Shown: positions 1 through 16,553, counted from the first letter of the stretch. The stretch: DNA of 39,433 nucleotides from a virus (IMGVR_UViG_3300032030_000013); one strand, 5' to 3'. The notes: generated by a model from the sequence alone, not told the origin. Numbers and translations: made by a program.

Positions 1-82
1 GAGATAATACCGACATCCTAAATAAATCAAATTGTTCTTGGTTATCTTCTAATAGATATACAATATTTAGTTTATCAAACAT
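1..82 (-). CDS. N-terminus of GT8-family glycosyltransferase paralog (runs off window edge)
   Basis: ATG at 82 gives MFDKLNIVYLLEDNQEQFDLFRMSVLS, which aligns with MKQFNIAYTIDDNDEQLEMLRMSIETL of 1015..1800. Confidence 0.75.
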   Translation of the reverse strand, partial: MFDKLNIVYLLEDNQEQFDLFRMSVLS

Positions 83-114
83 TCAAATTAACAATATAAT
101 TGACGATACACTTG

Positions 115-354
115 CTAAGTATGGGTTAAGATTGCTTACTGTTTAATAAATTCTAATTAAAGAAAATATCCCATGCAGACGTACCACCGTCACCTACGGT
201 ATTCCTGTACACGACCTTCGCGTGCTTAAGCCTTGGGCATCTCTGATATCGGAGTTTTATAGCCTGTACCCCAGTTTTCTCTTTCACAGTGTTCTCAAAG
301 TACTAACCGTAAAAGCCAATTTCCAGTACTTAACTTTATAAGTCTCATACTTAG
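115..354 (-). ncRNA. unknown ~240-nt structured RNA
   Basis: Closed by CTAAGTATG/CATACTTAG, GC-richer than coding DNA, no long ORF, internal hairpins (e.g. ACCGT AGGTG ACGGT). Confidence 0.45.
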
Positions 355-368
355 TAGTTTGTTTCGTG

Positions 369-442
369 TGGACCGTAAGGGACTCGAACCCTTCCTAAGA
401 GCTTGCAAAGCTCCCGTGCTAGCCAACTATCACTAACAGCCC
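369..442 (-). tRNA. tRNA-Ala(TGC)
   Basis: Cloverleaf, loop TT-TGC-AA, G3:U70. Confidence 0.95.
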
Positions 443-510
443 AAATAAGGTAGTTTTTATATCCTTAAATTAAATGGTTAGTATCTAGGGAACTACCAAA
501 CCCATTAAAC

Positions 511-647
511 AAGTTTATAAAGAACTTTCAATAAAAGTACATAGAGTAGGATTCGAACCTACGATCTTCGGTTACAACCCGACGTTTTACCACTAAACTA
601 CCCTTTCATGGCGAAAGAAGTAACTCTTATTTACACTATTAAAACTT
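511..647 (-). ncRNA. Y-RNA-like module enclosing a tRNA-like D/anticodon(TGT)/T domain via its acceptor ends
   Basis: GTGTAAATAAGAGTTACTTC pairs with ACTTTTATT; inside are GTTT-AGTGGTA-AAAC, TCGG-GTTGTAA-CCGA and GTAGG-TTCGAAT-CCTAC. Confidence 0.7.
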
Positions 648-650
648 TTG

Positions 651-733
651 AGCCGGAAGTCAGATTCGAACTGACGTGTCCTTACGGATCATGATTACAA
701 GTCAAGCGGAGTCGACCACTGTCCCATTCCGGC
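651..733 (-). tRNA. tRNA-Thr(TGT) with long variable arm
   Basis: GCCGGAA/TTCCGGC, CT-TGT-AA, extra arm TCC-GTAA-GGA. Confidence 0.85.
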
Positions 734-735
734 AA

Positions 736-831
736 ATATTTTATGTAACAGGCGAAGAAAGTTGGTTTTGGTAAAAAATGATCTTATTAAATTATTTCTT
801 GAAGTAACTCTCCTCTACAACAATAAAATAT
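736..831 (-). ncRNA. stand-alone Y-RNA-like module
   Basis: ATATTTTAT/ATAAAATAT terminal stem, GTTGTAG, GAGGAGAGT/ACTTTCTTC stem, TTACTTC. Confidence 0.75.
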
Positions 832-917
832 CAATTTTAAGATTCTATGCATATTTCCGGTTAGCTATTCCGGTCGGGTGGTCTGCCTCCACGTGATCTA
901 TTTAGAATCTTATTTAG

Positions 918-988
918 TTGCGGACGTCAGATTCGAACTGCGTCTTAAGGTTATGAGCCTTATGAGCTACCATTGCTCCACCTCCGCG
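918..988 (-). tRNA. tRNA-Met(CAT), initiator-like
   Basis: C1:A72 mismatch, CT-CAT-AA; compact T arm. Confidence 0.8.
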
Positions 989-1014
989 ATATTTATTTTA
1001 TATATTAATAATAG

Positions 1015-1800
1015 TTATTTAGCCATAATTATTTTATAAGTAGGAATAAAATTTTCTTTATTTTTACCATTACAATGAAATATTTTGATTGATTTAATTT
1101 GTCTTTCAAAAATTTCCGGATAATCTATAAATGAATGGATATTTATATTATTTTCTATTTTAATAGTACATTTATCTTTAAATTTATTAAAAAGATAATT
1201 ATATCCAGATTGATTTACAAATTTAATATCTTTTGAATTTTCTTTATAATATTTCAAAATGACATCAAATAAATTCATATCATTAAATTGTTTGGCATCA
1301 ATAAACAATATTCCAGCATTTAAATCTTTAACATTTAAATATCTTCTTTTTCTAAAATTTTCAGCAGATATAAGTTGAACAATTCTTTTATACCATTTTC
1401 TATTAAAACCGAAAAATAATTTTCCTTCTTGATATTTTAAAAATTCATCTCTAATATTAGCATTAAAAAGAATATCTGTATCTATATACCAAAAATAATC
1501 ATAAGGAATTATTTTTGTAATCCACCATCTAGCTAATGAAGGATATCTTAAATGCCCATTACAAGCATTTTTTAATTGAGGAAAATATTTATCAACTAAT
1601 GATATATCAAAATTAAAATATTCAATATTAACATCTAAATTAGATAATTTTTGTCTAATTTTATTTTCATCAACATAAAAATACATAATGAAAATATTAT
1701 CTACTTTATTAAATTTCAAAAGTGTTTCAATAGACATTCTGAGCATTTCTAATTGCTCATCATTATCATCAATAGTATAGGCAATATTAAATTGTTTCAA
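1015..1800 (-). CDS. glycosyltransferase family 8
   Basis: GT8 motifs: NIAY..DD, YIDTD (DxD), LNAGILFID, NQ..N, IFHCNG. Confidence 0.88.
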   Translation of the reverse strand: MKQFNIAYTIDDNDEQLEMLRMSIETLLKFNKVDNIFIMYFYVDENKIRQKLSNLDVNIEYFNFDISLVDKYFPQLKNACNGHLRYPSLARWWITKIIPYDYFWYIDTDILFNANIRDEFLKYQEGKLFFGFNRKWYKRIVQLISAENFRKRRYLNVKDLNAGILFIDAKQFNDMNLFDVILKYYKENSKDIKFVNQSGYNYLFNKFKDKCTIKIENNINIHSFIDYPEIFERQIKSIKIFHCNGKNKENFIPTYKIIMAK

Positions 1801-1820
1801 TTTGATTGGAAATATTTTTG

Positions 1821-1893
1821 CGGGACGTACGGGAGTTGAACCCGCTCCGTGCTGCGTGACAGGCAGACATCTTAACCGTTTGACCTACATCCC
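1821..1893 (-). tRNA. tRNA-Asp(GTC)
   Basis: Cloverleaf, CT-GTC-AC, G73. Confidence 0.92.
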
Positions 1894-1899
1894 AAATTG

Positions 1900-2040
1900 C
1901 TACCTCTGAGGGACTCGAACCCCCGACCCACGGGTTAACAGCCAAATAATGAAGTAACTCTAACCTACAACATCCAAAGGAGTAACAGCGACTAAAGTAT
2001 AAAAACATTTACGTTGCTCTACCAACTGAGCTAAGAGGTA
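1900..2040 (-). tRNA. tRNA-Asn(GTT) carrying a 68-nt Y-module insertion (1944..2011) in the anticodon stem
   Basis: Removing 1944..2011 gives a perfect ACGGG-CTGTTAA-CCCGT arm; insert contains ACTTTAG...TTAGAGTTACTTC. Confidence 0.8.
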
Positions 2041-2046
2041 GTTTTG

Positions 2047-2293
2047 TAGCGGCCATGGGAGTCGAACCCAATATTTGTGGGGTAATCTTCCCACCGTGGT
2101 TATTTCAAAAACAAGTAACTTAGTTCCTCACTTTATCCCGGGCTTGCTTGACCTTTAACCTTGTTTATTTCATGATGCTGTTAATTACTAATTTTAAGAT
2201 TGCTTACCCGTCGATAAGTAAAGCCTTAATCTAAGTCTTAACATAGCCTGCCGGCACATCAATTTAGAAATTTATCCGTTCCACTCGGACGCT
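2047..2293 (-). ncRNA. ~247-nt RNA closed by tRNA-like acceptor stem and T arm
   Basis: AGCGTCC/GGCCGCT-A (6 of 7 pairs), TGGG-TTCGACT-CCCA, large internal domain. Confidence 0.55.
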
Positions 2294-2305
2294 GAAAAGT
2301 TATTG

Positions 2306-2375
2306 TTGGAGCCAAGGATTCGAACCTTACCACGGACGCGCCATCACGTGTGCTTGCCATTTACACCAAACTCCG
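2306..2375 (-). tRNA. degenerate tRNA-Pro-like RNA
   Basis: D and T arms present; anticodon arm ACGTG-ATGG-CGCGT has a 4-nt loop. Confidence 0.5.
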
Positions 2376-2393
2376 ATTCTTGCAAGAATATTG

Positions 2394-2464
2394 CGCCTCT
2401 GGAGGGAATCGAACCCACACCTACTGATTAACAGTCAGCTGCTCGACCTTCGAGCTACAGAGGC
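2394..2464 (-). tRNA. tRNA-Asn(GTT)
   Basis: Cloverleaf, CT-GTT-AA. Confidence 0.93.
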
Positions 2465-2523
2465 ATTAAAGCAGATTTTATTATAAGCTGGTAACGTCTG
2501 CAAACCTTACTTATAACCTTTCG

Positions 2524-2600
2524 TGGGGACGACGGGGGTTGAACCCGCATGCAACCAATTACCCTTTCGACACTTTATAAGAGTGAGGGGTTACGTCCCT
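2524..2600 (-). tRNA. rewired tRNA-like RNA, anticodon TAT (Ile)
   Basis: Order: acceptor - ACCC - CACT/CTTATAA/AGTG - GGGT - AATTGG - T arm - acceptor. Confidence 0.75.
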
Positions 2601-2759
2601 AAATTATGGAGACAACCTGATAAATTCTCCATAGAATTGGTTAAGAGTCGTTCGGCTTTGGTTGATAGTCTAGTTAATTTACCGGCTTACTAATCCTCCC
2701 AATTCATTTTAACTATCATTCTACTTACGTCAGTTCGTGTCCCTATTACGGGCTCGGAG

Positions 2760-2833
<74 letters not shown>

Positions 2834-2844
2834 ATATTATTTTG

Positions 2845-2919
2845 CAGGTCCTGAAAGATTCGAACTCTCATCGTGCAGGTTTGGAGTCTGCTGTTTTGCT
2901 CTTTTTAAACTAAGGACCC
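2845..2919 (-). tRNA. tRNA-Trp(CCA)
   Basis: CT-CCA-AA, G73; D loop lacks GG. Confidence 0.88.
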
Positions 2920-3069
2920 ATATTATATTGTTATTAACAACTGTGGGTGTCCTAAATACCTGGAACCTTTGGCTACGGCCCGCATGCGGAGTCGAGTTGA
3001 CTTTTAGAACCATTGTTAATATTCAAAGTGATATTCCTACTTTATACCCACTTTCCTTTTACAATATTG

Positions 3070-3142
3070 TACGCCCACTGGGACTCGAACCCAGGACCCA
3101 CGGATTAAAAGCCCGTTGCTCTACCAACTGAGCTATGAGCGC
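3070..3142 (-). tRNA. tRNA-Lys(TTT)
   Basis: Cloverleaf, CT-TTT-AA. Confidence 0.95.
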
Positions 3143-3256
3143 AAATCTCATTTATCTATTGACTCCCATATCGGAATTTTACCGAAATGAAAACGCTGCA
3201 TCGTAAGGAGCGGGATTTTACCCCTAAGATAAACTCGATTAATTATTGTAACCTTG

Positions 3257-3337
3257 TGCCCTCTGTGGGACTCGAACCCACACCTCCGAAGAGCTAGATC
3301 CTTAGTCTAGTGCGTATACCAATTCCGCCAAAAGGGC
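3257..3337 (-). tRNA. tRNA-Leu(AAG)
   Basis: CTAGA-CTAAGGA-TCTAG, class II arm, A73. Confidence 0.92.
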
Positions 3338-3345
3338 ATATTGTG

Positions 3346-3419
3346 TACCTCCGGTGGGATTCGAACCCACGCTCCTATGCTTAAGAGGCATCAGCTTTAA
3401 CCAGCTAAGCTACAGAGGC
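3346..3419 (-). tRNA. tRNA-Lys(CTT)
   Basis: Cloverleaf, CT-CTT-AA. Confidence 0.94.
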
Positions 3420-3634
3420 ATTTAAAAGCTTCGGTTTTAACTTTGTTATCTTTTTGTATAGGATCATCAATCTATCTTTTCACCAGAGTAATTAGCTCAG
3501 GGTCCCGATTACGGACTTCTACCGTTTATCATATTCAATAACTAAGACTTGTAGATAGGCGAAGCATTTCGAACTACTTCATTGCCAACCGTAGCTATAA
3601 ATTTCTCTACAAGTTTTTGCATGGCATGCAATTG

Positions 3635-3707
3635 TGGGGCCACCCAGATTCGAACTGGGGTGACGACCTTGTAAGGGTCGCATACTCAACCACTATATGA
3701 TGTCCCC
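3635..3707 (-). tRNA. tRNA-Val(TAC)
   Basis: CGACC-CTTACAA-GGTCG. Confidence 0.93.
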
Positions 3708-3876
3708 ATTTATAATCTAATCTACACAGCTGACCCATTTCAGTAACGTCTTACATATCAGCTCCTACTGGTCACGACTGAACGTCTTCTTCTGCGAGAA
3801 GGTTTCTCACCTCCATTTTTTTGACCTGCCTCTTCCCCTTCAGAATTTTTAGATTCTGACCTCGATTAGATTATTG

Positions 3877-4064
3877 AACTCACGGGAGGATTCGAACCTC
3901 CATAATATTGTCTATAATATTTAATTTACTAAATAGCAAAAATGTTATTTTCTTAACACGTTAAACAAATTGCTAATAATTATGATTATATTTCTCTATT
4001 ATTTATATAATCATTCGCCTCTATTATAGGTTGTACTGCTGATACCATTCAGCAACCGTGAGTT
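3877..4064 (-). ncRNA. tRNA-like RNA with ~130-nt domain replacing the anticodon arm
   Basis: AACTCACG/CGTGAGTT, D arm GCTG-AATGGTAT-CAGC, T arm GGAGG-TTCGAAT-CCTCC. Confidence 0.7.
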
Positions 4065-4199
4065 AACTAATATATATTTCCTTGTTTTTTGTCCATTACG
4101 TTATACTCGGAGTAAAAAACTAAATATATAAAATTACAAAACCACTTAGAATATAACGGTATATTTGTTGCTAAGGTAATATACAAAACCTCAATTAAG

Positions 4200-4272
4200 T
4201 GCTCCCACCCGGATTCGAACCGAGACCTGACAGATTAAGAGTCTGCTACGCTACCATTAACGCCATGAGAGC
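4200..4272 (-). tRNA. tRNA-Lys(CTT)
   Basis: Cloverleaf, CT-CTT-AA. Confidence 0.94.
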
Positions 4273-4286
4273 AAACTTTCAAATTG

Positions 4287-4359
4287 TGCATCCACTGGGA
4301 TTCGAACCCAGACCTGACAGATTAAAAGTCTGCTACGCTACCATTAACGCCATGAATGC
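4287..4359 (-). tRNA. tRNA-Lys(TTT)
   Basis: Cloverleaf, CT-TTT-AA; D and anticodon arms match 4200..4272. Confidence 0.94.
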
Positions 4360-4365
4360 AATTAG

Positions 4366-4439
4366 TACCTGCACTGGGATTCGAACCCAGGACCCCGAGA
4401 TTAAAAGTCACGTACTCTAACCAACTGAGCTATACAGGC
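4366..4439 (-). tRNA. tRNA-Lys(TTT)
   Basis: Cloverleaf, CT-TTT-AA. Confidence 0.93.
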
Positions 4440-4448
4440 ATATACCTG

Positions 4449-4522
4449 TACTCCCTCTGGGACTCGAACCCAGGCCCCTCTGCTTAAAAGGCAGCAGCTC
4501 TAACCAACTGAGCTAAGAGAGC
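4449..4522 (-). tRNA. tRNA-Lys(TTT)
   Basis: Cloverleaf, CT-TTT-AA. Confidence 0.94.
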
Positions 4523-4678
4523 ATGTTTATAAATTCAAATTTTAACAATTATTTTGATTTTACGTGCATGCTTCTTATTAGTTAATTGTTAGGACTAATT
4601 GCTCTAAGGAAACATACACAACTAACGTTTTCGTTTAAGTTGTTTCATATTTCTTATAATTTATTTAGTTAATGTTTG

Positions 4679-4760
4679 TGGGGCCTGAGAGACTCGAACT
4701 CCCCGTGCGCGATGCAGCTGATTTACAGTCAGCCCCGATGCCATCTCCGGTCACGACCCC
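4679..4760 (-). tRNA. tRNA-Tyr(GTA)
   Basis: GCTGA-CTGTAAA-TCAGC, long variable arm. Confidence 0.9.
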
Positions 4761-4991
4761 AAAATGTGGAATTAAACCGGAATTCCACAACCGGCTAAAC
4801 TTATTTTTGGACCTTTCCATTGGATTAGTTTAGATTCAACCATAGATAAATCAAGAATAGATTTATCTCCCTACTATAATGGGGTAGGTAAATTCCCAAT
4901 GATTAGTTTATTCATCACGAACTAACTAATCCATATCATCTCCATTCTTCCATAAAAAATTATATAACGCTCTTCCATACGTTATACAATG

Positions 4992-5065
4992 TGGGCCAGG
5001 CAGGAATTGAACCCGCGACCTTTTGATTATGAGTCAACTGCTCTAACCATCTGAGCTACAGGCCC
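4992..5065 (-). tRNA. tRNA-Ile2/Met(CAT)
   Basis: CT-CAT-AA; GGGCC start typical of lysidine-type Ile2. Confidence 0.9.
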
Positions 5066-5070
5066 ATTAG

Positions 5071-5156
5071 TACCTGGAGCGGGACTTGAACCCGCACGCC
5101 CATTGCTGGACATCAGATTTTAAGTCTGAGGCGTCTACCAATTCCGCCATCCAGGC
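5071..5156 (-). tRNA. tRNA-Leu(TAA)
   Basis: CT-TAA-AA, class II arm. Confidence 0.95.
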
Positions 5157-5170
5157 ATCATTTATTGTAC

Positions 5171-5186
5171 CAATATGTCAAAGAAC
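5171..5186 (-). promoter_or_regulatory. boxA-like antitermination element
   Basis: GTTCTTTGACATATTG; recurs at 8145, 8898 and 17339 downstream of promoters. Confidence 0.7.
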
Positions 5187-5220
5187 GTATTGTTGTTTTA
5201 TTTATAATAATTACAAATAT

Positions 5221-5248
5221 AAAATAGTAATAAATATTATTATTTCAA
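5221..5248 (-). promoter_or_regulatory. putative promoter
   Basis: TTGAAA-N16-TATTTT. Confidence 0.65.
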
Positions 5249-5278
5249 TTATATTTATGTAAAAATTATTTCATTTTG

Positions 5279-5358
5279 TACCCCGAGTGGGATTCGAACC
5301 CACACCCAATTAAGGACGAATTTTAAGTCCGCTGCGTAGACCATTCCGCCATCGGGGC
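5279..5358 (-). tRNA. tRNA-Leu(TAA)
   Basis: CT-TAA-AA, class II arm. Confidence 0.94.
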
Positions 5359-5521
5359 ATTTAAGTTGAAATCCTCATGAGCAAGATAGTTATTAGGTAC
5401 GCAGTGTGCATCTGCGCATTGGAACATTTTCAAGTTGTTAACTAACCATCATTTTATGTGCTTTAATTAAGTTTACCAACTATCTAATTTCAACTTATAT
5501 TTTATAATTTTTTGATTTAAG

Positions 5522-5628
5522 AAGATATTTTAGTTGGATTCGAACCAACGCGAAAGGCTTGGAAGTTTCCTCATGTCTGACAAATACGTGGCCTTTGTAT
5601 TCGTATCCACTGCATCATAAAATATCTT
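5522..5628 (-). ncRNA. tRNA-like RNA with extended acceptor stem and ~30-nt anticodon loop
   Basis: AAGATATTTTA/TAAAATATCTT, AAAGGC/GCCTTT, GTTGG-TTCGAAT-CCAAC. Confidence 0.6.
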
Positions 5629-5704
5629 TGGCGGTCCCAACGGGATTCGAACCCGTACCTCCGACGTGACAGGCCGGCGATTGTAGCCATTCAACCATGA
5701 GACC
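5629..5704 (-). tRNA. tRNA-Asp(GTC), encoded CCA
   Basis: CT-GTC-AC, ends GCCA. Confidence 0.93.
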
Positions 5705-5824
5705 AGTGTCTGTTTACTTCAAAGTTACCTACCCGATATATACGTATAGTCCTAATATAAATTAGGGTGGCTAAGCCCTTCATCGGTTACCTACCTTCAG
5801 GGGTGAAACAGAAAAGACCCAATG

Positions 5825-5920
5825 TGCCAGTGGTAGGACTCGAACCTACTTACCACGAAGGCCAATACGAACTATTTGTTGACGTGGGACGGTTTTACAG
5901 ACCGCTGCCGTTACACTGGC
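5825..5920 (-). tRNA. rewired tRNA-like RNA, anticodon GTA (Tyr)
   Basis: GCCAGTG/CACTGGC-A; no D arm before GCGGT-CTGTAAA-ACCGT; GCC..TGGTAA follows the anticodon arm. Confidence 0.65.
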
Positions 5921-6122
5921 AAATTAAATGCATTTACCCACCTAGCCATCCACGATACGGTTCGTTGTGCTATCCTACGGCCTCGGTAATATGGCGAATT
6001 TGCAACTTCTCATATAACTGTACCACCATCGCTCTTCTTCACTTCTTTTCACCGTAACCCGTAGATGTAACCCTACTACTCAGAAGTCCATCGATTTGCT
6101 CCGACCTGATAAATACATTTAG

Positions 6123-6199
6123 CGGTCCCTACGGGATTCGAACCCGTCTGGTTGTACTCCGTGACAGGGAGACGTCCACCCCAAGCAGACCCAGAGACC
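6123..6199 (-). tRNA. tRNA-Asp(GTC)
   Basis: CT-GTC-AC, G73. Confidence 0.9.
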
Positions 6200-6345
6200 A
6201 ATATTCAATTTCACAGATAATTGAGAACTGTATTGGCGGTAGAGAGTTCAGCACCGGTCTGGGATTTAAATCAACCAGCCGTTTGGGATATGCTCAGGTA
6301 TCTACCTTTCCCTGACCTTGAGCTCCCAGGATTTTTACAGTCGTT

Positions 6346-6415
6346 GCTATTATCAAGGATTCGAACCTTTCCGCCGGCTGACAAGCCGGAATGCTACCGT
6401 TACACCAAATAATAA
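6346..6415 (-). tRNA. degenerate tRNA-Asp-like RNA
   Basis: CCGGC-TTGTCA-GCCGG with 6-nt loop; AT-rich acceptor; D and T arms intact. Confidence 0.5.
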
Positions 6416-6518
6416 ATGATATCTGCAACCTATCATGATTTGTTAATCCTCAACATTTACTCTACATTTCCATGTTGCAGCAGAAAGTTTTCAATGCATA
6501 TCGAATTAGCCATGTTCG

Positions 6519-6593
6519 CGGGAGCAGAGGGATTCGAACCCACAACCATTGGCTTAACAGGCCACCGCTCTAACCGTTAAAAGCTATACTCCC
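6519..6593 (-). tRNA. tRNA-Asn(GTT)
   Basis: CT-GTT-AA. Confidence 0.93.
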
Positions 6594-6801
6594 AATTATA
6601 AAAATCAATTCTACACAAGTTTCATTAGGGACACTTATTAGAAACTTCATCCTTTGACATAATCACCTCCCAAGCTTTTTGTCACAACCTTTGTTATTGT
6701 TCCATCTTACTCTCATATTGTCTTTCGACCTCTTTACAGTTATTGCAAATGTTCTGTAAAGTTTTAGGATTTCTTCAATAACCCATCCTGAAATTGATTT
6801 G

Positions 6802-6876
6802 CGGGAGCAGAGGGATTCGAACCCACAACCATCGGCTTAACAGGCCGCCGCTCTAACCGTTAAAAGCTATACTCCC
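6802..6876 (-). tRNA. tRNA-Asn(GTT)
   Basis: Near-identical to 6519..6593 with one compensatory pair change. Confidence 0.93.
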
Positions 6877-6998
6877 AAATTATATTAAGTAAGGATCAAA
6901 TTTCATTACTTATCTTCCATTGTCCGCATCGACGGAAACTACTCTTTAAGTATAGAAGTTGTTCAATAGCACTCGCCTCGACGATTTACTTAATATTG

Positions 6999-7070
6999 CG
7001 CTCCCAGAAGGATTCGAACCTACGACCAATAGATTAACAGTCTACTGCTCTACCGCTGAGCTATGAGAGC
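6999..7070 (-). tRNA. tRNA-Asn(GTT)
   Basis: CT-GTT-AA. Confidence 0.94.
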
Positions 7071-7139
7071 TGGAACCCGGAACATTATTTAACGAGATGA
7101 ACACCGGGTGGATATCTCGATAGTCATTCAACCAACTTG

Positions 7140-7213
7140 TGGAGAATGAGGGACTTGAACCCTGAACTCCTCCTTGCAAGGGAGGTGTGTTAGCCAATTA
7201 CACCACAAACCCC
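7140..7213 (-). tRNA. tRNA-Ala(TGC)
   Basis: CCTCC-CTTGCAA-GGAGG, G3:U70; acceptor partly mismatched. Confidence 0.88.
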
Positions 7214-7282
7214 GTACTCCAGTTTAGCCATTCCTTTTAAATTTTGCGAACCAAAGCAATCAAAACTGGAAAATGAAGCATG

Positions 7283-7356
7283 AGCTCCGTACCGGACTCG
7301 AACCGATAACATCCGCATTACAAGTGCGGCGCTCTACCAATTGAAGCTAACAGAGC
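7283..7356 (-). tRNA. tRNA-Thr(TGT)
   Basis: CCGCA-CTTGTAA-TGCGG. Confidence 0.94.
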
Positions 7357-7649
7357 AAATTACTTATCATCCGGATTGTTAACCAGGGTTTCTACACCAA
7401 ATGCGTTTCAAAGACGTTTAGATGGGAGCGTTCTATACATATTAAACTATAGATAAGTAAAAGTAAAGATGTAGTAGGATCACCTATTCCTACCTTCTGT
7501 CAATACTCATTCAAACTTCCGGATAAGGAAAGCAGTCATGACCGGTATTTGGCTGTATTCCTTGAACTTTTTAGTCTTGGTGAGGATGTTTATTCCATGT
7601 CCTTCAAAGTTTAGAGCAATGCGACTGTGGACATCTACATCTTTGTTTG

Positions 7650-7793
7650 AGAGTCATTAGAGAATTGAACTCTAAAGGTGAACAATTTCGTCGACAGCAC
7701 CACCTGTTTCCGAGTACTTTCGCCGGCAGACCATATTCTGTACAAACGGTTGGTAGCCTCCAGACCTCCAACTGCCGCTTATCTGTTTGACCC
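7650..7793 (-). ncRNA. ~144-nt RNA closed by tRNA-like acceptor stem and T arm
   Basis: GGGTCA/TGACTC, TAGAG-TTCAATT-CTCTA, internal multi-hairpin domain. Confidence 0.55.
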
Positions 7794-7942
7794 ATGTTAA
7801 AAATGGCTTCATTGAAAATATTATTCCGTATCGGTTAATACTTATTTCAATCTACTCCTACAGTATTTTCTCAGCCAAAATTATGAATGTTATTCCAACT
7901 TATTAAGTAGTCTTCCAACTTACATCGAAGGCATTCATATTG

Positions 7943-8014
7943 AGGTCCCAATGAGATTCGAACTCATACCACCGGATTACTAAACCGGAGTTCTACCATT
8001 ATAACTATAAGACC
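7943..8014 (-). tRNA. tRNA-Thr(AGT)
   Basis: CCGGT-TTAGTAA-TCCGG, U73. Confidence 0.85.
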
Positions 8015-8144
8015 AGATTGATAAGGAAATTCTGTTTGCATTACTACATATATTTACTGAACTATACCGTTAAGGTGCTTGGCATCTCATTGGCAGGGGT
8101 TTTTCACCACTCCTCTTCCATATCAGTTTCTATGTTTGTTGTAT

Positions 8145-8160
8145 CAATATGTCAAAGAAC
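8145..8160 (-). promoter_or_regulatory. boxA-like element
   Basis: GTTCTTTGACATATTG. Confidence 0.7.
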
Positions 8161-8201
8161 TCAAATGTAATTCGAAGTTTTTGTTTTCGTTTTACATATA
8201 T

Positions 8202-8229
8202 AATATAGAAATAAATTTCAAAATTTCAA
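8202..8229 (-). promoter_or_regulatory. putative promoter
   Basis: TTGAAA-N16-TATATT. Confidence 0.7.
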
Positions 8230-8271
8230 ATATAATTCAAAAAATTTTATTTTATTTCTAAATTATTTTTG

Positions 8272-8397
8272 TGATTATGGTTGGATTCGAACCAACGTAG
8301 CCCAGGGTAACTTACTTCCTCAGTTTAACTTTATCAAGAAACTTTCTAACGTTTTCAGCAGTGACCTGGTAGCACATCCAATCTGCTTCACATAACC
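8272..8397 (-). ncRNA. tRNA-like RNA with ~55-nt extension in the anticodon arm
   Basis: GGTTATG/CATAATC-A, CCAGG/CCTGG, GTTGG-TTCGAAT-CCAAC. Confidence 0.65.
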
Positions 8398-8412
8398 AAA
8401 AATCTATTTTTG

Positions 8413-8480
8413 TTTCTATACCCGGATTCGAACCGGAGACCTCTTGAACAAGCGCTCTTCCTTACTGAGCTATATAGAAA
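8413..8480 (-). ncRNA. tRNA-like RNA with truncated anticodon arm
   Basis: Normal acceptor, D and T arms; anticodon arm reduced to CTT-GTTC-AAG. Confidence 0.7.
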
Positions 8481-8574
8481 ATCCGCTTTCATAAAAACTA
8501 CCATACTCCATTATATACATACGGCCGATATTATATAACTTCATTACTCTCATTAATAATCCAACTTAAAAATG

Positions 8575-8645
8575 TTGGTCTACCGGGATTCGAACCCAGA
8601 ACAGAAGGACCAAAATCTTCCGTGTTACCATTACACCATAGACCA
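8575..8645 (-). tRNA. tRNA-Gln(TTG)
   Basis: U1:A72, TT-TTG-GT. Confidence 0.93.
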
Positions 8646-8897
8646 ATCTATAAAAATCCGGTACTATTCTCCTATAATGTTCATTTAAGTGTGAATCCTT
8701 GCTCTACATGTGGTGGGTCACTTTACCCTGATTTTCAAATTCCCATGGAAATTATCAATCCCTCATATATAGTACCTTTGTACTTTTACTGAATTATTGC
8801 TCCTTTTGCCTATTTAGGAGTATCGGCTGACTACGTTATAGAATTGGAATTGAACCTATTCTTCAATAATCCAGTGGATTTTATTTTCTATTGAGTT

Positions 8898-8913
8898 CAG
8901 TATTTCAAAGACC
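8898..8913 (-). promoter_or_regulatory. boxA-like element (variant)
   Basis: GGTCTTTGAAATACTG. Confidence 0.5.
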
Positions 8914-8916
8914 TAA

Positions 8917-9037
8917 ACATTTATAAATATTATTAGTATTCAAATATTAATCACATTTATTGTGATATACATTTATAAATATTATTAGTATTCAAATATT
9001 AATCACATTTATTGTGATATACATTTATAAATATTAT
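8917..9037. repeat. 52-bp tandem repeat, 2.3 copies
   Basis: ACATTTATAAATATTATTAGTATTCAAATATTAATCACATTTATTGTGATAT at 8917 and 8969, partial at 9021. Confidence 0.95.
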
Positions 9038-9060
9038 ATATTTTTAAATATTATATAAAT

Positions 9061-9088
9061 AATATAGTACTTTATTTTATAATTTTAA
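9061..9088 (-). promoter_or_regulatory. putative promoter
   Basis: TTAAAA-N16-TATATT. Confidence 0.5.
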
Positions 9089-9131
9089 ATTAATTAAGAA
9101 AATTTTTAAAAATATTATGTTTGTTTTATTT

Positions 9132-9171
9132 AAACAAATAAGTGGTTAGATTTTTGTTAATCCAACCACTT
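9132..9171 (-). terminator. intrinsic terminator (attenuator)
   Basis: AAGTGGTTGGATT-AACAAA-AATCTAACCACTT-ATTTGTTT. Confidence 0.75.
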
Positions 9172-9202
9172 GCATTTATATCATTTCTATTTTATTGTAC
9201 CC

Positions 9203-9316
9203 CTATATCTCAGAATCTCCATGCAAGTGGTCTTTACATAACGCATAATTCTTATTCCAAGTATTATTATCTAATATTTGGTCTAATATTTGTTTATATG
9301 TATTGACTTGTTGCAT
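9203..9316 (-). CDS. putative 37-aa leader peptide
   Basis: MQQVNTYKQILDQILDNNTWNKNYALCKDHLHGDSEI*; contains an 11-nt complement of the terminator 5' side. Confidence 0.55.
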   Translation of the reverse strand: MQQVNTYKQILDQILDNNTWNKNYALCKDHLHGDSEI

Positions 9317-9422
9317 TTGATATTTAATTAATTTAATTTATAATAAAAATATTCTAAGATTTTATATAAATAAATTAGATATTTTTTATAGAAAAATTCA
9401 AATAATTTATTTATTTTATATT

Positions 9423-10595
9423 TTATTTTAAGTTTTCTTCAATTTCTGAGATCATTTTCTTTACTTTCTGTACATATTCCTTAGCATCACGTATAGCTTC
9501 ATCTGATGAAGATGCATCATAATCCCAGTCTTTAAATTTTTCTTCATCCCATTCTTCTCCCTTTTCTTCAGCACGTTTCTTATAACGTTCCTTTGTACGT
9601 TCTGAATCTCTCTTATATTTCATTGCCTTATAAAATTGTTCATAAGCATAAGATACATAACGCATAAGATCATCTAAGCTAAAACGTTGATCCATGTTTT
9701 CTGGTTTAGACATTACCTTTTGGAATAAAGCAACCACTTCATCATTAGTCTTTTTGATTTCATCAAATAAAATATTTGGATCTGATTGAAGTTTCTGTGC
9801 TTTAATTTCTTTTACCATTGCACGATAACGACCTTGCTGTTGCTTAAGAAGATCACGTAAACTTCTTTCATCAAGATTAACAACTCCCTTTTGAGATTCT
9901 TCACGTTCTTTATGAAGTACATCATAGTCTTTAACCATATCTTCTTTGATTTCAAGGAAATATATGTCTAATCCTGAAACAACATCAATAGCTTCATCAA
10001 GTTTTAATGAGCGTTCTCCATACTTATATTTAGTTGCAGTCTTTTCTTGTACACCAGATTTATATCCTGTTGTTGGGAAATAATATACTCTTACGTCTCC
10101 TAAAGTTTTTACATAACCTTTTATGAAACAAACAACATCTTTAGTTCCTGGTTTACAACAAATTACATCAGCCATTATTTTCTTTTGATATACAGATCTT
10201 AATAACTTAATGAATTTCTTATCCCAATCTTCAGAATCTGCTTCAAAATATTGGAAGTCATCATCTTTAATTTCTGACCATTTTAAACCACGAATACCTG
10301 TCTTTTTATTATTTCCATATCTTGATGTTTCTGTTAATGGACCAAATATAGAAGCAAAAGATTTAGCAGTTTTTGTTGGAGAATAACCACGTCCTTCTTC
10401 TTTATAACGTTTTTCTGCTGCTTTATCATTTTCAGCATGTTTAGATTCTGCGTCTTTAATAGCTTTTGCTAAACTAGTCAATATTGATGATTGAAAACTT
10501 TCTGTTATAAGTTCATCAGCAATTAAATTAACTGTTTCTAAGAATATTGCTCTATCACAAGAATATTCTGACATATATTCACATAATTGTATCAT
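9423..10595 (-). CDS. hypothetical protein (390 aa, helical C-terminus)
   Basis: Long ORF, phage-like codon use; no motif recognised. Confidence 0.85.
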   Translation of the reverse strand: MIQLCEYMSEYSCDRAIFLETVNLIADELITESFQSSILTSLAKAIKDAESKHAENDKAAEKRYKEEGRGYSPTKTAKSFASIFGPLTETSRYGNNKKTGIRGLKWSEIKDDDFQYFEADSEDWDKKFIKLLRSVYQKKIMADVICCKPGTKDVVCFIKGYVKTLGDVRVYYFPTTGYKSGVQEKTATKYKYGERSLKLDEAIDVVSGLDIYFLEIKEDMVKDYDVLHKEREESQKGVVNLDERSLRDLLKQQQGRYRAMVKEIKAQKLQSDPNILFDEIKKTNDEVVALFQKVMSKPENMDQRFSLDDLMRYVSYAYEQFYKAMKYKRDSERTKERYKKRAEEKGEEWDEEKFKDWDYDASSSDEAIRDAKEYVQKVKKMISEIEENLK

Positions 10596-10696
10596 TTCTA
10601 AGTTTAATGTATTTATATATTAAAAATAAAAAAAGTTACATATATATTAATAAAATATATACATAACTTTATTGGGATATTTGTGTCAATTGCGAG

Positions 10697-10775
10697 TAGC
10701 CCAACTGGGATTCGAACCCAGACCCATAAGGACCGCTTTTGAGACGGCTGCGTAGACCAATTCCGCCATCGGGCC
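10697..10775 (-). tRNA. tRNA-Leu(CAA)
   Basis: CT-CAA-AA, Leu-type D loop. Confidence 0.92.
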
Positions 10776-10780
10776 AAAAT

Positions 10781-10851
10781 ATACTGAACTTAATGGAGTT
10801 GAACCATTCTGTAATTCTTTATCGCGCGCTATCACCGGATAAGTTCAGTAT
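10781..10851 (-). ncRNA. tRNA-like mini RNA (long acceptor-like stem plus T arm)
   Basis: ATACTGAACTT/AAGTTCAGTAT, AATGG-TTCAACT-CCATT. Confidence 0.55.
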
Positions 10852-10897
10852 TATATATTGATACAATTAAGAAATTTTATAAAGTTCATTAATAAAA

Positions 10898-11146
10898 TTA
10901 TGAAATTTTGTATAATTCATTATTGTCAATTGCTCGTCTTATCCATCTCATCAATATTAATGCTTTATCATAATGAGACATAAATGTAGCAGTTTCTCCA
11001 ACATCATGTTTATCTGACAAATCTATATCTAATGAATAGACAGTCCCATCTTCTACAGTTATATGATAAACTGCAATTCCACCAGATTTAACACAATCTA
11101 AAACAGCGGATCCTTTTACGATAGTTTTTAAATCATGAGTAATCAT
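10898..11146 (-). CDS. hypothetical protein (82 aa)
   Basis: Likely start MITHDLK with upstream AGAGG; the longer ORF call overlaps tRNA-Leu. Confidence 0.75.
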   Translation of the reverse strand: MITHDLKTIVKGSAVLDCVKSGGIAVYHITVEDGTVYSLDIDLSDKHDVGETATFMSHYDKALILMRWIRRAIDNNELYKIS

Positions 11147-11185
11147 AATAATACCTCTATATATTTTTCTTAAATTTGTTTGATG

Positions 11186-11265
11186 TGGGGTTAGTGGGAT
11201 TCGAACCCACACCCAATTAAGGACAGTGTCTTAGGCTGCTGCGTCGACCATTGCGCCATAACCCC
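11186..11265 (-). tRNA. tRNA-Leu(AAG)
   Basis: CT-AAG-AC, class II arm, A73. Confidence 0.88.
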
Positions 11266-11515
11266 ATTTTCTCTTTATTCTAACCTTCTGAATAAATGTA
11301 CTCGCGACATACAGATAATTCATACTTCTTGGTCTTACTTGAAATTATAAAGACGTTACCCCCCTCAGGGACATTCTTTACAATTTCTTTCAGCTTGATG
11401 ATTTCCTTTTTTCACAGGTAACGATAAATTCCTGTCATCAAGTCATTGAACAAAGAGTTAATTTGTAGTTTTATTTTAACCGGTTTAACTACATATAAAA
11501 ACGGTATCGTATTCG

Positions 11516-11589
11516 TAGGGCTGGTGAGAGTCGAACTCACGCTCCCTTGCTTGTAAGGCAAGTGCTTTAAACCACTAAGCTACAGCCCT
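11516..11589 (-). tRNA. tRNA-Val(TAC)
   Basis: CTTGC-CTTACAA-GCAAG. Confidence 0.94.
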
Positions 11590-11605
11590 ATATATTTTAA
11601 TTTTG

Positions 11606-11684
11606 TACCCCGCCTGGGACTCGAACCCAGACCCCTAAGGATAGCTTCTAAGGCTACTGACTATACCAATTCGTCTAGCAGGGT
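11606..11684 (-). tRNA. tRNA-Leu(TAG)
   Basis: GTAGC-CTTAGAA-GCTAT. Confidence 0.92.
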
Positions 11685-11708
11685 ATTATTAATATCAACA
11701 TTTATAGA

Positions 11709-11767
11709 TGGTTACGTTGGAATCGAACCAAATAGCTAGCATACATGTACCATTTACTGCGTAACCA
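11709..11767 (-). ncRNA. 59-nt tRNA-like mini RNA lacking a proper anticodon arm
   Basis: GGTTACG/CGTAACC-A, GTA-AATGG-TAC, TTGG-TTCGATT-CCAA. Confidence 0.6.
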
Positions 11768-11777
11768 ATTTAATTTG

Positions 11778-11846
11778 TCAGGGGTGATTGAGTTAAACAA
11801 CCGTCTCATAGTAAAATCCATGGCTCTATCGTTGAGCTAACCCCCG
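11778..11846 (-). tRNA. degenerate tRNA-like RNA
   Basis: TAGCTC..GAGC D arm, 6-nt anticodon loop ATTTTA, atypical T loop. Confidence 0.45.
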
Positions 11847-12082
11847 ATACACGTGGCTCTTTCGAGTTTCGTGAAAGATATGGTATCTTTCTGAGGTTCC
11901 TCGCCCTCTATAGGATGTGGTACATATCTGAAGATACAGGTACAACAACTCTAACTAACGCTTCTATAGATTCCTCAGACCACGCACTTAAGGAACAGAA
12001 CGTACGATTTCTCCTAACACCATAATATTAGGCTACTTCGATTCATAGGCCTGTGCACCAACCTATGACGGCATGCTTTAAT

Positions 12083-12403: not shown

Positions 12404-12426
12404 TTTCTCTACATATTATATATCTG

Positions 12427-13414: not shown

Positions 13415-13545
13415 TCGCGGAGGTTGGACTCGAACCAACATAATCTTTTTCCAAATAAAAGCGTGTATACCGAAGTAACTCTAATCTACAGCATTCATAT
13501 TGAAGCAACAGCGAATAAAGTATTAAAAAATTTCACCACTCCGCG
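13415..13545 (-). tRNA. tRNA (Gln TTG or Pro TGG register) with Y-module insertion (~13472..13528) in the D loop
   Basis: CGCGGAG/CTCCGCG-A; GTGAAATT[insert ending AGAGTTACTTC]GGTATACAC. Confidence 0.75.
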
Positions 13546-13635
13546 AAATAAATAGTCTCTCCTATTAGTCACAACATTTTTTCTTAACCTTAAGTAATTA
13601 TAAATTACGCAGGAAACCTTGTTAAACCTGCCGTG

Positions 13636-15179: not shown

Positions 15180-15253
15180 AATTCCTGTAATAAGCGAATA
15201 AAGTATTTTTAAAGACCCATTCTTGAAGTAACTCTATTCTTCAACAAGGAATT
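15180..15253 (-). ncRNA. stand-alone Y-RNA-like module
   Basis: AATTCCT/AGGAATT, GTTGAAG, GAATAGAGT/ACTTTATTC, TTACTTC. Confidence 0.75.
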
Positions 15254-15329: not shown

Positions 15330-15398
15330 AATTGATAGAATAATCGTAGAAAGTATTTAAGCATTCCTAGAAGTAACTCTCTACTACACTAATCAATT
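15330..15398 (-). ncRNA. stand-alone Y-RNA-like module
   Basis: AATTGAT/ATCAATT, GTAGAGAGT/ACTTTCTAC, TTACTTC. Confidence 0.75.
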
Positions 15399-16412: not shown

Positions 16413-16553
16413 AAAATTATCGGAACAGCTATAAAAGTATAAATAAATATCGATTCTCTTGGATTCGAACCAAGGATTCAATTCTGGAAAAATTGCATTA
16501 AAACCACTTAATTAAAAATCGTGAAGTAACTCTTATATACACCAGATAATTTT
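16413..16553 (-). ncRNA. Y-RNA-like module enclosing a complete tRNA-Gly(TCC)-like cloverleaf
   Basis: TATAAGAGT/ACTTTTATA stem; inside CGATTTT/AGAATCG, ATTA-AGTGGTTT-TAAT, CAATT-TTTCCAG-AATTG, CTTGG-TTCGAAT-CCAAG. Confidence 0.75.

What the first reader, a model, noticed from the sequence alone, without database searches (positions are those of the whole stretch)
1900..2040. tRNA-Asn with a 68-nt 'intron' that is an inside-out Y module
Seen: deleting 1944-2011 restores a perfect tRNA-Asn(GTT). The insert lies in the 5' strand of the anticodon stem, is too short for a group I or II intron, and shows no evident bulge-helix-bulge. The gene is essentially a circular permutation of the YrlA layout at 16649-16824: same module, joined at the anticodon arm, but opened at the acceptor end. 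Inference: it is either an unspliced, chargeable tRNA-Y chimera, or a protein-spliced intron that would release a Y RNA. It may be an evolutionary intermediate between tRNA and YrlA, and some annotated phage tRNA 'introns' may be such handles.
Basis: partly seen in the sequence, partly recalled or inferred. Interest (0 to 1): 0.85.

Follow-up and report, generated by a model that had tools for sequence, protein, structure and literature searches.

The report
tRNA-Asn carrying a Ro60-type RNA handle
A gene in a large phage's tRNA cluster encodes a complete asparagine tRNA with an extra 68-base hairpin in its anticodon stem. That hairpin is a conserved "handle" found beside Ro60 ring-protein genes in many phages and bacteria, so the RNA is most likely a tRNA-shaped Ro60 partner (Y RNA), not a tRNA with an intron.

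Summary
On the minus strand, 2040..1900 is a tRNA-Asn(GTT) interrupted after anticodon-stem nt 29 by 68 nt (2011..1944). Deleting them gives a perfect cloverleaf.

The insert is a hairpin-closed copy of a two-strand module, ACUUUNNN…NNNAGAGUUACUUC, present 8 times in this tRNA array. The module occurs in at least 119 viral contigs and at least 120 prokaryotic genome loci. It lies on the same strand as a Ro60/TROVE gene in 39 of 80 viral TROVE loci. It also lies within 8 kb of one in 40 of 120 genome loci (strand 49:1).

Ten interrupted tRNAs (Asn, Lys, Thr) pair in 310 of 310 cells, and 20 of 31 pairs show compensatory changes. These include stem pairs that bridge the insert.

Best reading (about 0.6): an unspliced, tRNA-shaped Y RNA. 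Junction geometry varies, there is no bulge-helix-bulge, and no splicing endonuclease was found. The same open topology sits in the Y-RNA slot beside TROVE genes. Splicing is not excluded, because relatives encode RtcB and no RNA data could be obtained. No TROVE gene lies in this window.

The scan has noted the same phenomenon on other DNA. I found no paper describing it.

The parts
1900..2040 (-). Whole 141-nt chimeric gene: tRNA-Asn(GTT) body plus handle arm
   Evidence: (ARAGORN -i)
2012..2040 (-). 5' tRNA part: acceptor 5' strand, U8 A9, D arm, A26, anticodon-stem nt 27-29 (ACG)
   Evidence: columns 1-31 of alignment A3
1944..2011 (-). 68-nt insert, a hairpin-closed ('inside-out') handle
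1900..1943 (-). 3' tRNA part: anticodon-stem nt 30-31 (GG), loop CUGUUAA, CCCGU, variable loop, T arm, acceptor 3' strand, G73
1991..1998 (-). Handle strand 2 (ACUUUAGU), pairs with 1964..1957
   Evidence: 8-bp helix, 93% of cells paired, 3 pairs with compensatory changes
1951..1964 (-). Handle strand 1: GUUAGAGU (stem) followed by the invariant UACUUC; contains the AGAGUUACUUC signature
   Evidence: invariant columns
1982..1990 (-). Conserved internal-loop strand CGCUGUUAC
   Evidence: same consensus (CGCUUGUUCC) follows strand 2 in TROVE-adjacent RNAs
1965..1972 (-). Conserved internal-loop strand UGUUGUAG
   Evidence: corresponds to GGUGNNGUAG in TROVE-adjacent RNAs
1973..1981 (-). Capping hairpin UCC-UUU-GGA that replaces the free 5'/3' ends of the ordinary handle
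   Evidence: three pairs, all with compensatory changes (UCC/GGA, UUC/GAA, CAC/GUG, AUC/GAU)
2006..2009 (-). Inner 4-bp helix, 5' strand AAUG (pairs with CAUU at 1951..1948)
   Evidence: fold; AUUG/CAAU in G001 and L021. Not present in the Lys chimeras
13415..13545 (-). Second chimera of the same kind: tRNA-like body (anticodon loop AUUUGGA, UUG) with the inside-out handle in the D loop
   Evidence: found in all four relatives identified by protein homology (G004-G007), whose tRNA arrays are loci L213-L216
16649..16824 (-). Closed, circularly permuted tRNA-like RNA between handle strands 1 and 2 (YrlA-like layout)
16431..16551 (-). Handle strands flanking a whole tRNA-Gly(TCC)
531..644 (-). 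Handle strands flanking a whole tRNA-Thr(TGT)
755..828 (-). Free-standing handle hairpin (strand 1, loop, strand 2)
15197..15253 (-). Free-standing handle hairpin
15347..15398 (-). Free-standing handle hairpin; stem GAGAGU/ACUUUC covaries with UAGAGU/ACUUUA

Best explanation
The gene makes a stable, unspliced 141-nt RNA. It is a complete tRNA-Asn fold with a fifth arm leaving the 5' strand of the anticodon stem between nt 29 and 30. That arm is the conserved handle of a large, apparently undescribed branch of Y RNAs. These are the small RNAs encoded beside Ro60/Rsr (TROVE) ring proteins in Bacteroidota, other bacteria and many phages. Here the handle's usual free ends are closed by a small hairpin and the tRNA's acceptor end is open. 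In the ordinary form, the handle holds the RNA's ends and the acceptor stem is closed. The handle would dock a Ro60 ring, either phage-encoded (as in relative G005) or the host's. The tRNA body would be the displayed 'effector' domain, a tRNA look-alike offered to tRNA-binding proteins. The RNA is one of eight handle-bearing RNAs in this array and is not needed for decoding, because four intact tRNA-Asn(GTT) genes lie nearby. Shown: the anatomy; conservation and covariation of both parts; the genomic link of the handle to TROVE genes. Inferred: Ro60 binding, absence of splicing, and the downstream role.
For: 1. The handle is a real structured RNA element. In 26 inside-out copies, 91.8% of cells pair against 77% in shuffles (0 of 500 shuffles reach it), and slid controls give 16-55%.
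2. Ten interrupted tRNAs pair in 310 of 310 cells, and 20 of 31 pairs show compensatory changes. These include pairs 27:43 and 28:42, which bridge the insert, and the capping hairpin.
3. Link to Ro60 in viruses: 39 of 80 viral TROVE loci carry the signature on the TROVE strand, mostly 0.1-0.9 kb upstream. There are 64 sites on that strand against 5 on the other, and about 6 per strand are expected by chance.
4. Link to Ro60 in prokaryotes: 40 of 120 genome loci found by the motif have a TROVE homologue within 8 kb, with strand agreement 49:1.
5. In the ordinary closed form the handle holds the RNA's termini, so there it cannot be an intron. Those RNAs match Rfam YrlA through their tRNA-like core at 33-50 bits.
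6. The open (interrupted-tRNA) topology also sits in the Y-RNA slot next to TROVE genes: L009 twice, L157 and L174, some with an encoded CCA.
7. The junction is not fixed. The 3' linker after UACUUC is 0-9 nt and the 5' linker 6-16 nt. The insertion site is nt 26/27, 28/29, 29/30 or the D loop.
8. There is no bulge-helix-bulge (reading). No EndA-type endonuclease was found in five related records, while the archaeal controls matched.
9. The capping loops are stable tetraloops (GUAA, GAAA) in G001 and L021.
10. One crAss-like subgroup has a 9-nt 'anticodon' loop at the same locus, so decoding is dispensable there.
11. The window has four intact tRNA-Asn(GTT) genes.
12. Relative G005 encodes a TROVE protein.
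Against: Transcription, RNA size and splicing state are therefore unknown. Ro60 binding rests on gene neighbourhood only. No TROVE gene lies in the 39-kb window. None was found in the nearest relative G007 (83% complete) or in G001, G004 and G006. In G005 the TROVE gene lies about 30 kb from the array. The handle lacks the GNCGAA(N)G / CGAA motif reported for known Ro60-binding Y RNAs. Removing the insert restores a flawless tRNA with canonical U33, a purine at 37 and G73. Relatives encode RtcB, the ligase of protein-dependent tRNA splicing. The structure used for the pair counts was drawn from the same sequences, and the ten tRNAs are partly paralogues.
Confidence: 0.6

Rival explanations
1. 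Protein-spliced intron. A nuclease (unknown, possibly recruited by the handle-binding protein) cuts at both junctions. RtcB then joins the halves, giving a working tRNA-Asn and a free or circular 68-nt mini Y RNA.
For: Exact restoration of a 5-bp anticodon stem and a canonical tRNA. The anticodon stem covaries across the insert. RtcB genes are present in relatives G001, G005 and G007. Archaea are known to carry protein-spliced introns at non-canonical sites, including anticodon stems and D loops (PMC4090602, listed; details from my own knowledge).
Against: No bulge-helix-bulge is present. No EndA was found in five related records. The distances from the conserved handle to both junctions vary, as does the insertion site, which is hard to reconcile with a single measuring nuclease. 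The same handle is a permanent part of the closed forms. The open forms occupy the Y-RNA slot beside TROVE. The phage already has dedicated genes for free handle hairpins. Phage RtcB is usually explained as repair of nuclease-cut tRNAs (PMC7824862). The tRNA is redundant.
Confidence: 0.15
2. The handle is real but is not a Ro60 site here. It serves another protein or a processing step of the tRNA array, for example as a nuclease or chaperone signal. The chimera would then be a processing intermediate or regulator.
For: No TROVE gene was found in the window or in four of five related records. The handle also flanks whole tRNAs (531-644, 16431-16551), like a leader-trailer processing stem. It lacks the published CGAA-type Ro60 motif.
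Against: The strand-specific link to TROVE genes in two independent collections is very strong. All related records are incomplete (35-83%). The motif scan found the handle in gut and rumen Bacteroidales assemblies (Bacteroides, Prevotella, Paludibacteraceae). At least two such loci, a Bacteroidales MAG and a Bacteroides sp. MAG, also hold a TROVE homologue.
Confidence: 0.15
3. Unspliced and still a working tRNA: charged by AsnRS and used in translation with the extra arm in place.
For: All tRNA features are kept: U8, G18 G19, the T loop, U33, A37, G73 and the anticodon GUU.
Against: The arm leaves the stem at pairs 29:41 and 30:40, which the 30S subunit grips in the P site through 16S rRNA G1338/A1339 (my own knowledge, not tested here). 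Some sister chimeras have non-canonical 9-nt loops. The D-loop chimera in relative G006, at the corresponding place in the array, reads GAA instead of UUG.
Confidence: 0.05
4. Dead gene: a tRNA-Asn copy broken by insertion of a repeated element and now decaying.
For: The tRNA is redundant, with four intact Asn genes in the array. The repeat is present 8 times.
Against: Every helix pairs perfectly, with compensatory changes, across phages whose proteins are only 32-48% identical. There are no disabling changes. The same design recurs in many lineages.
Confidence: 0.05

Closest known systems
YrlA-type bacterial and phage Y RNAs bound by Ro60/Rsr (Rfam RF02553; Chen et al. 2014, PMC4201824)
   Same: A small RNA built from a protein-binding stem plus a tRNA-like domain (T arm, D arm, acceptor). 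The family is encoded beside TROVE genes on the same strand. Closed-form relatives match RF02553 through the tRNA-like core (33-50 bits).
   Different: There is no hit to RF02553 in this window at E<=1, and relatives stay below the gathering score of 69. The handle sequence (AGAGUUACUUC / ACUYU..CGCUKGUUMC) differs from the GNCGAA(N)G motif. The body is a full tRNA with an anticodon arm. The acceptor end is open and the handle is hairpin-closed, inserted in the anticodon stem. The gene sits in a tRNA array, not beside a TROVE gene.
Thermus phage phiLo Ro60 with Yrl1/Yrl2 (PMC12135203)
   Same: A phage-encoded Ro60 with small partner RNAs encoded just upstream. It forms complexes with host PNPase, which shows that phages use this RNP.
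   Different: Yrl RNAs are stem-bulge-stem RNAs with a CGAA motif. No tRNA chimera or inverted topology is described.
Archaeal non-canonical tRNA introns removed by EndA and RtcB (review PMC4090602)
   Same: A short insert inside a tRNA gene at a non-canonical site, including anticodon stems and D loops. Removal restores the tRNA. An RtcB-type ligase is present in relatives.
   Different: There is no bulge-helix-bulge and no EndA, in a bacterial-virus context. The insert is a conserved protein-handle module that also exists as a permanent part of other RNAs.
Circularly permuted tRNA genes of Cyanidioschyzon merolae (Soma et al. 2007; my own knowledge)
   Same: The same tRNA parts are found in permuted gene order within one genome.
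   Different: Those are matured through a circular intermediate into normal tRNAs by BHB processing. Here the permutation concerns where a protein handle is attached, and nothing indicates circularisation.

Membership tests
Y RNA / YrlA (Ro60 partner RNA) | Encoded near a Ro60/TROVE gene on the same strand (criterion of Chen et al. 2014) | tested here: inconclusive
   Met for the handle family: 39 of 80 viral TROVE loci with 64 vs 5 sites by strand, and 40 of 120 genome loci with strand 49:1. Not met for this copy: no TROVE gene in the window. Among relatives, only G005 has one.
Y RNA / YrlA (Ro60 partner RNA) | Match to the Rfam RF02553 covariance model at its gathering score (69 bits) | tested here: not met
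   No RF02553 hit at 1900-2040 or 16649-16824, even at E<=1. Closed-form relatives score 32.7-50.2 bits.
Y RNA / YrlA (Ro60 partner RNA) | tRNA-like domain with T arm, D arm and acceptor stem | tested here: met
   Full cloverleaf; all helices pair in 10 of 10 homologues.
Y RNA / YrlA (Ro60 partner RNA) | [quoted passage not shown] | tested here: not met
   The motif is defined. The insert reads ...AGAGUUACUUCAUUAUUU and has no CGAA.
Y RNA / YrlA (Ro60 partner RNA) | RNA termini lie in the protein-binding stem; acceptor-like stem closed by a loop | tested here: not met
   Here the handle is closed by UCC-UUU-GGA and the acceptor is open. The closed layout is seen at 16649-16824.
Y RNA / YrlA (Ro60 partner RNA) | Physical binding to Ro60/Rsr | not testable with these tools
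   Needs EMSA, RIP or a structure. Complex prediction takes proteins only.
Protein-spliced (archaeal/eukaryal-type) tRNA intron | Bulge-helix-bulge (or relaxed hBH) motif presenting both splice sites | tested here: not met
   The 4 nt before either junction have no complement in the required place (reading). The folds show none. Junction linkers vary among homologues.
Protein-spliced (archaeal/eukaryal-type) tRNA intron | Splicing endonuclease (PF01974) available | tested here: not met
   0 of 5 related phage records at E<=0.1, while four archaeal controls matched. The records are fragments, and bacterial hosts are not known to have EndA (my own knowledge).
Protein-spliced (archaeal/eukaryal-type) tRNA intron | RtcB-type ligase available | tested here: met
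   RtcB is present in G001, G005 and G007 at 168-183 bits. The window itself holds none among its nine largest ORFs.
Protein-spliced (archaeal/eukaryal-type) tRNA intron | Spliced product observed | not testable with these tools
Scans of metagenome contigs for the spliced and the unspliced junction both found nothing, so they say nothing.
Self-splicing group I / II intron or small self-cleaving ribozyme | Catalytic core recognisable; adequate size | tested here: not met
   The insert is 68 nt. No intron or ribozyme family matched in 1-20000 at E<=1.
Elongator tRNA-Asn | Contiguous cloverleaf with GUU anticodon and G73 | tested here: not met
   The cloverleaf appears only after removing 68 nt. 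The Rfam tRNA model and default ARAGORN do not call it.

The most novel reading that the evidence does not exclude
The handle marks a new, protein-guided kind of tRNA splicing in bacterial viruses. A handle-binding protein (Ro60 or another) brings in a nuclease and RtcB, which cut out the 68-nt arm. This would yield a working tRNA-Asn and a free or circular mini Y RNA. One gene would then make both a tRNA and a Ro60 regulator, possibly switched by infection stage or by tRNA damage.
Probability: 0.12. Interest if true: 0.95.

Novelty: new variant of a known kind. Interest (0 to 1): 0.72.

Why it matters
Y RNAs and Ro60 are conserved from bacteria to humans, but the role of the tRNA-like part of bacterial Y RNAs is still unknown. 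Here the tRNA part is a full, isotype-specific tRNA, and the Ro60-type handle can be attached at four different places or left free. This natural 'domain-swap' series shows that the handle and the tRNA body are independent modules. It also gives ready-made constructs for testing what Ro60 does with tRNA shapes. Candidate roles are RNA repair with RtcB, decoys for anticodon nucleases, and tethering of PNPase. On the practical side, tRNA finders miss these genes or would call them intron-containing tRNAs, and Rfam's YrlA model does not reach them. A sizeable class of phage and Bacteroidota small RNAs is therefore unannotated at present.

Tried and rejected
2. Exact scans of metagenome contigs found nothing for the spliced junction or for the unspliced exon-insert junction. 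The control failed, so neither result counts.
3. Whole-genome search of the window's own genome is not possible, because no genome is held.
4. BLAST of the 18-kb array and of the insert against cultured and GenBank phages gave only single tRNAs or chance 23-nt matches.
5. The window ORFs gave no TROVE, RtcB, nuclease or ligase. This covers Pfam and PHROGs on the larger ORFs and tblastn of the G005 TROVE protein against the window. It also covers PDB, Atlas and hhalign against TROVE for the 390-aa ORF, and hhalign for the 474-aa ORF.
6. The control genomes were also silent, so this is uninformative.
7. A brute-force scan of deletion boundaries with ARAGORN gave ambiguous isotypes, because moving the boundary creates artificial loops. 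I replaced it with explicit reading and alignment.
8. Promoter reading of the AGAGUUACUUC motif: rejected, because it covaries with a partner strand in both orders.
9. Thermodynamic stability as evidence: rejected (z -0.25 and -0.48).
10. A search for an insert-free orthologue among the fetched loci found none.
11. A scan for the exact WIN-type insert found only L021 and L080.

Full report
CONTEXT. The first 17.5 kb of the window hold 53 ARAGORN tRNA genes, all on the minus strand. Coding DNA of 21-27% G+C follows. No whole genome is held. The 1263-aa protein next to the array has homologues (48, 42, 41 and 32% identity) next to similar tRNA arrays in four IMG/VR records. These records are 116-236 kb long and 44-83% complete: G007, G006, G004 and G005. 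The window therefore comes from a large phage.

THE OBSERVATION. On the minus strand, 2040..1900 reads as a tRNA-Asn(GTT) broken after anticodon-stem nt 29 by 68 nt (2011..1944). Default ARAGORN and the Rfam tRNA model skip the gene. ARAGORN with intron search calls tRNA-Asn(gtt) with a 68-nt intron. With 1944-2011 removed, the cloverleaf is perfect: stem ACGGG/CCCGU, loop CUGUUAA, G73. The boundary cannot slide. The body is a distinct Asn tRNA, not a copy of the four intact Asn genes in the array (55, 50, 46 and 44 of 73 bases identical).

THE INSERT IS A REPEATED MODULE. AGAGUUACUUC occurs eight times, always on the minus strand inside the array, against 0.56 expected.
- Each copy has a partner strand ACUYUNNN that pairs with the NNNAGAGU part. 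The pair covaries within the window: UAGAGU/ACUUUA versus GAGAGU/ACUUUC.
- The two strands occur in both orders:
  - strand 1, loop, strand 2: free hairpins at 755-828, 15197-15253 and 15347-15398;
  - strand 1, whole tRNA, strand 2: 531-644 and 16431-16551;
  - strand 1, circularly permuted tRNA-like body with a loop-closed acceptor, strand 2: 16649-16824;
  - inside out, strand 2, small hairpin, strand 1, within a tRNA: the Asn gene, and a second case in the D loop at 13415-13545.
- In every case the tRNA body hangs on the same end of the helix.

THE MODULE ELSEWHERE. It often lies in tRNA clusters and in all of these topologies.
- In the closed form the RNA is a complete permuted tRNA, in this order: handle strand 1, UAC, anticodon arm, variable loop, T arm, loop-closed acceptor, D arm, linker, handle strand 2. 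Such RNAs match Rfam YrlA only below threshold, at 43.8 and 32.7 bits against a gathering score of 69, mostly through the tRNA-like core.
- Twenty-six distinct inside-out cores align well. The 8-bp stem plus 3-bp capping helix pairs in 91.8% of cells, against 77.2% in shuffles (0 of 500 shuffles reach it) and 16-55% when slid. Six pairs show compensatory changes.

LINK TO Ro60. Two records with the module encode TROVE (Ro60-like) proteins. In G003 two module RNAs lie directly upstream on the same strand.
- I fetched 80 viral TROVE loci using an alignment of two such proteins.
- In 39 of them, the 11-mer (up to 1 mismatch) lies on the TROVE strand. There are 64 sites there, mostly 0.1-0.9 kb upstream, against 5 on the other strand. 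About 6 per strand are expected from 755 kb (my arithmetic).
- The motif scan of one genome per prokaryotic species found at least 120 loci, many in Bacteroidota.
- Forty of these hold a TROVE homologue within the 8-kb locus, with strand agreement 49:1. The RNAs there again match YrlA at 37-50 bits.
- This is the same criterion by which YrlA RNAs were defined (PMC4201824).
- The handle lacks the GNCGAA(N)G / CGAA motif of the described Y RNAs. The window's own RNAs give no YrlA hit at E<=1.
- I therefore treat the handle as the mark of an undescribed branch of Ro60-linked RNAs. Binding itself is inferred.

THIS PHAGE AND Ro60. No TROVE gene lies in the window. Relative G005 has one, about 30 kb from its array. 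G007, G006, G004 and G001 show none in the sequenced 44-83%. RtcB is present in G001, G005 and G007. No EndA-type splicing endonuclease was found in five records, while the archaeal controls matched. The motif scan also found the handle in gut and rumen Bacteroidales assemblies. At least two such loci hold a TROVE homologue, so a host-supplied Ro60 is possible.

HOMOLOGUES OF THE INTERRUPTED tRNA. I found 27 module-interrupted tRNA-like genes with intact acceptor and T arms.
- The nearest relatives are tRNA-Asn and tRNA-Lys in G001 and tRNA-Thr in L021. They carry an almost identical insert at nt 28/29-29/30.
- Lys chimeras in G006, L095, L002, L096 and L105 carry the insert at 28/29.
- L028 (Ile) and several TROVE-adjacent RNAs carry it at 26/27, with an intact anticodon arm.
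- Others carry it in the D loop (Gln, Asp, Tyr, Pro, Thr).
- In an alignment of ten anticodon-stem cases, all 310 cells of 31 pairs are standard pairs, and 20 pairs show compensatory changes. These include all seven acceptor pairs, stem pairs 27:43 and 28:42 that bridge the insert, the pairs below it, and the three capping pairs.
- Caveats: I drew the structure from these sequences, and they are partly paralogues. The slid controls (29-46%) and the shuffles (0 of 500) are nevertheless far away.

SPLICED OR NOT. Six points argue for a permanent arm.
1. The same handle is a permanent, end-forming part of the closed RNAs.
2. Open forms occupy the Y-RNA slot beside TROVE genes: L009 twice, L157 and L174, some with an encoded CCA. 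In the 26/27 class their body-handle linkers resemble those of the closed form.
3. The junctions are not at a fixed distance from the conserved handle. There are 0-9 nt after UACUUC and 6-16 nt before ACUYU, and four insertion sites. No bulge-helix-bulge can be drawn.
4. The cap is a stable hairpin, with GUAA or GAAA loops in G001 and L021.
5. A crAss-like subgroup has a 9-nt loop in place of the anticodon loop. The D-loop chimera in relative G006, at the corresponding place in the array, reads GAA instead of UUG.
6. Four intact Asn genes make this one dispensable for decoding.

Three points keep splicing open: the flawless tRNA left after removal, the canonical anticodon loops kept in most chimeras, and RtcB in relatives.

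I could obtain no RNA reads. My two junction scans of metagenome contigs were both empty and so uninformative. Decoding by the unspliced RNA seems unlikely, because the arm leaves the stem at pairs 29:41 and 30:40, which the 30S P site contacts (my own knowledge, not tested).

TOPOLOGY CENSUS (rough, rule-based).

| Set of loci | Closed | Open |
|---|---|---|
| Viral TROVE loci | 26 | 5 |
| Viral motif loci | 37 | 58 |
| Prokaryotic motif loci | 48 | 3 |

At least one of the 'open' calls in the viral TROVE loci (L129) is an artefact of two closed-form RNAs lying in tandem. With that caveat, the open, interrupted-tRNA form looks largely like a phage speciality.

LITERATURE. Phage Ro60 and Y RNAs are known (PMC4201824; PMC12135203; PMC7824862). 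My full-text searches found no description of a Ro60-type handle inserted into tRNAs. One review (PMC10870794) is not held.

EARLIER NOTES OF THIS SCAN. They report the same phenomenon in other phage genomes and reach similar readings. I used them as leads only.

VERDICT. The feature is real and under selection. It is most likely an unspliced tRNA-shaped Y RNA (0.6). A protein-spliced intron remains possible (0.15), as does a handle serving a partner other than Ro60 (0.15).

Noticed in passing
window 2045-2392 (-): About 340 nt without a called gene lie directly upstream of the chimera. The stretch ends in a T-arm plus acceptor-like 3' end (GGGUUCGACUCCCAUGGCCGCUAC) 5 nt before the tRNA-Asn start, and holds a tRNA-like piece near 2300-2375. 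The same ...CCCAUGGCCGCUAC end precedes the chimeras in G001 (L217), L095 and L002. It could be a large tRNA-related or tmRNA-like RNA; there is no Rfam hit.
   Followed up: partly
window 13415-13545 (-); L213, L214, L215, L216: The D-loop chimera is found in all four protein-confirmed relatives. Its anticodon loop reads UUG in most and GAA in G006, and the acceptor stems differ. The shape is kept but the identity is not.
   Followed up: partly
L011, L013, L025, L032, L034, L036, L079, L098 (crAss-size, ~100-kb contigs): A group of ~100-kb phages carries the same kind of chimera with a 9-nt loop (AUGUUGAAA) where sister phages (L007, L096) have a canonical Lys loop CUUUUAA. In L090 the chimera lies about 4 kb downstream of a tmRNA gene within the same fetched 7.4-kb locus.
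   Followed up: partly
window 9423-10595 (-) and 1015-1800 (-): Two ORFs (390 and 261 aa) sit inside the tRNA array on the tRNA strand. Neither matches Pfam or PHROGs, and the 390-aa one also has no PDB or Atlas match.
   Followed up: partly
window 16830-16916 (-): A tRNA-Sec-like match lies just below the Rfam threshold (43.8 bits, gathering 47), immediately upstream of the closed YrlA-like RNA.
   Followed up: no
L218-L337 (prokaryotic genomes): The handle motif is common next to TROVE genes of Bacteroidota (Flavobacterium, Pedobacter, Sphingobacterium, Bacteroides and others). Those RNAs are missed by Rfam YrlA at its threshold, which points to an annotation gap.
   Followed up: partly
window 5825-5920, 2524-2600, 14074-14149 (-): Weak or oversized tRNA-model matches (34.9, 23.0 and 24.8 bits) suggest further unusual tRNA-like genes in the array.
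   Followed up: no
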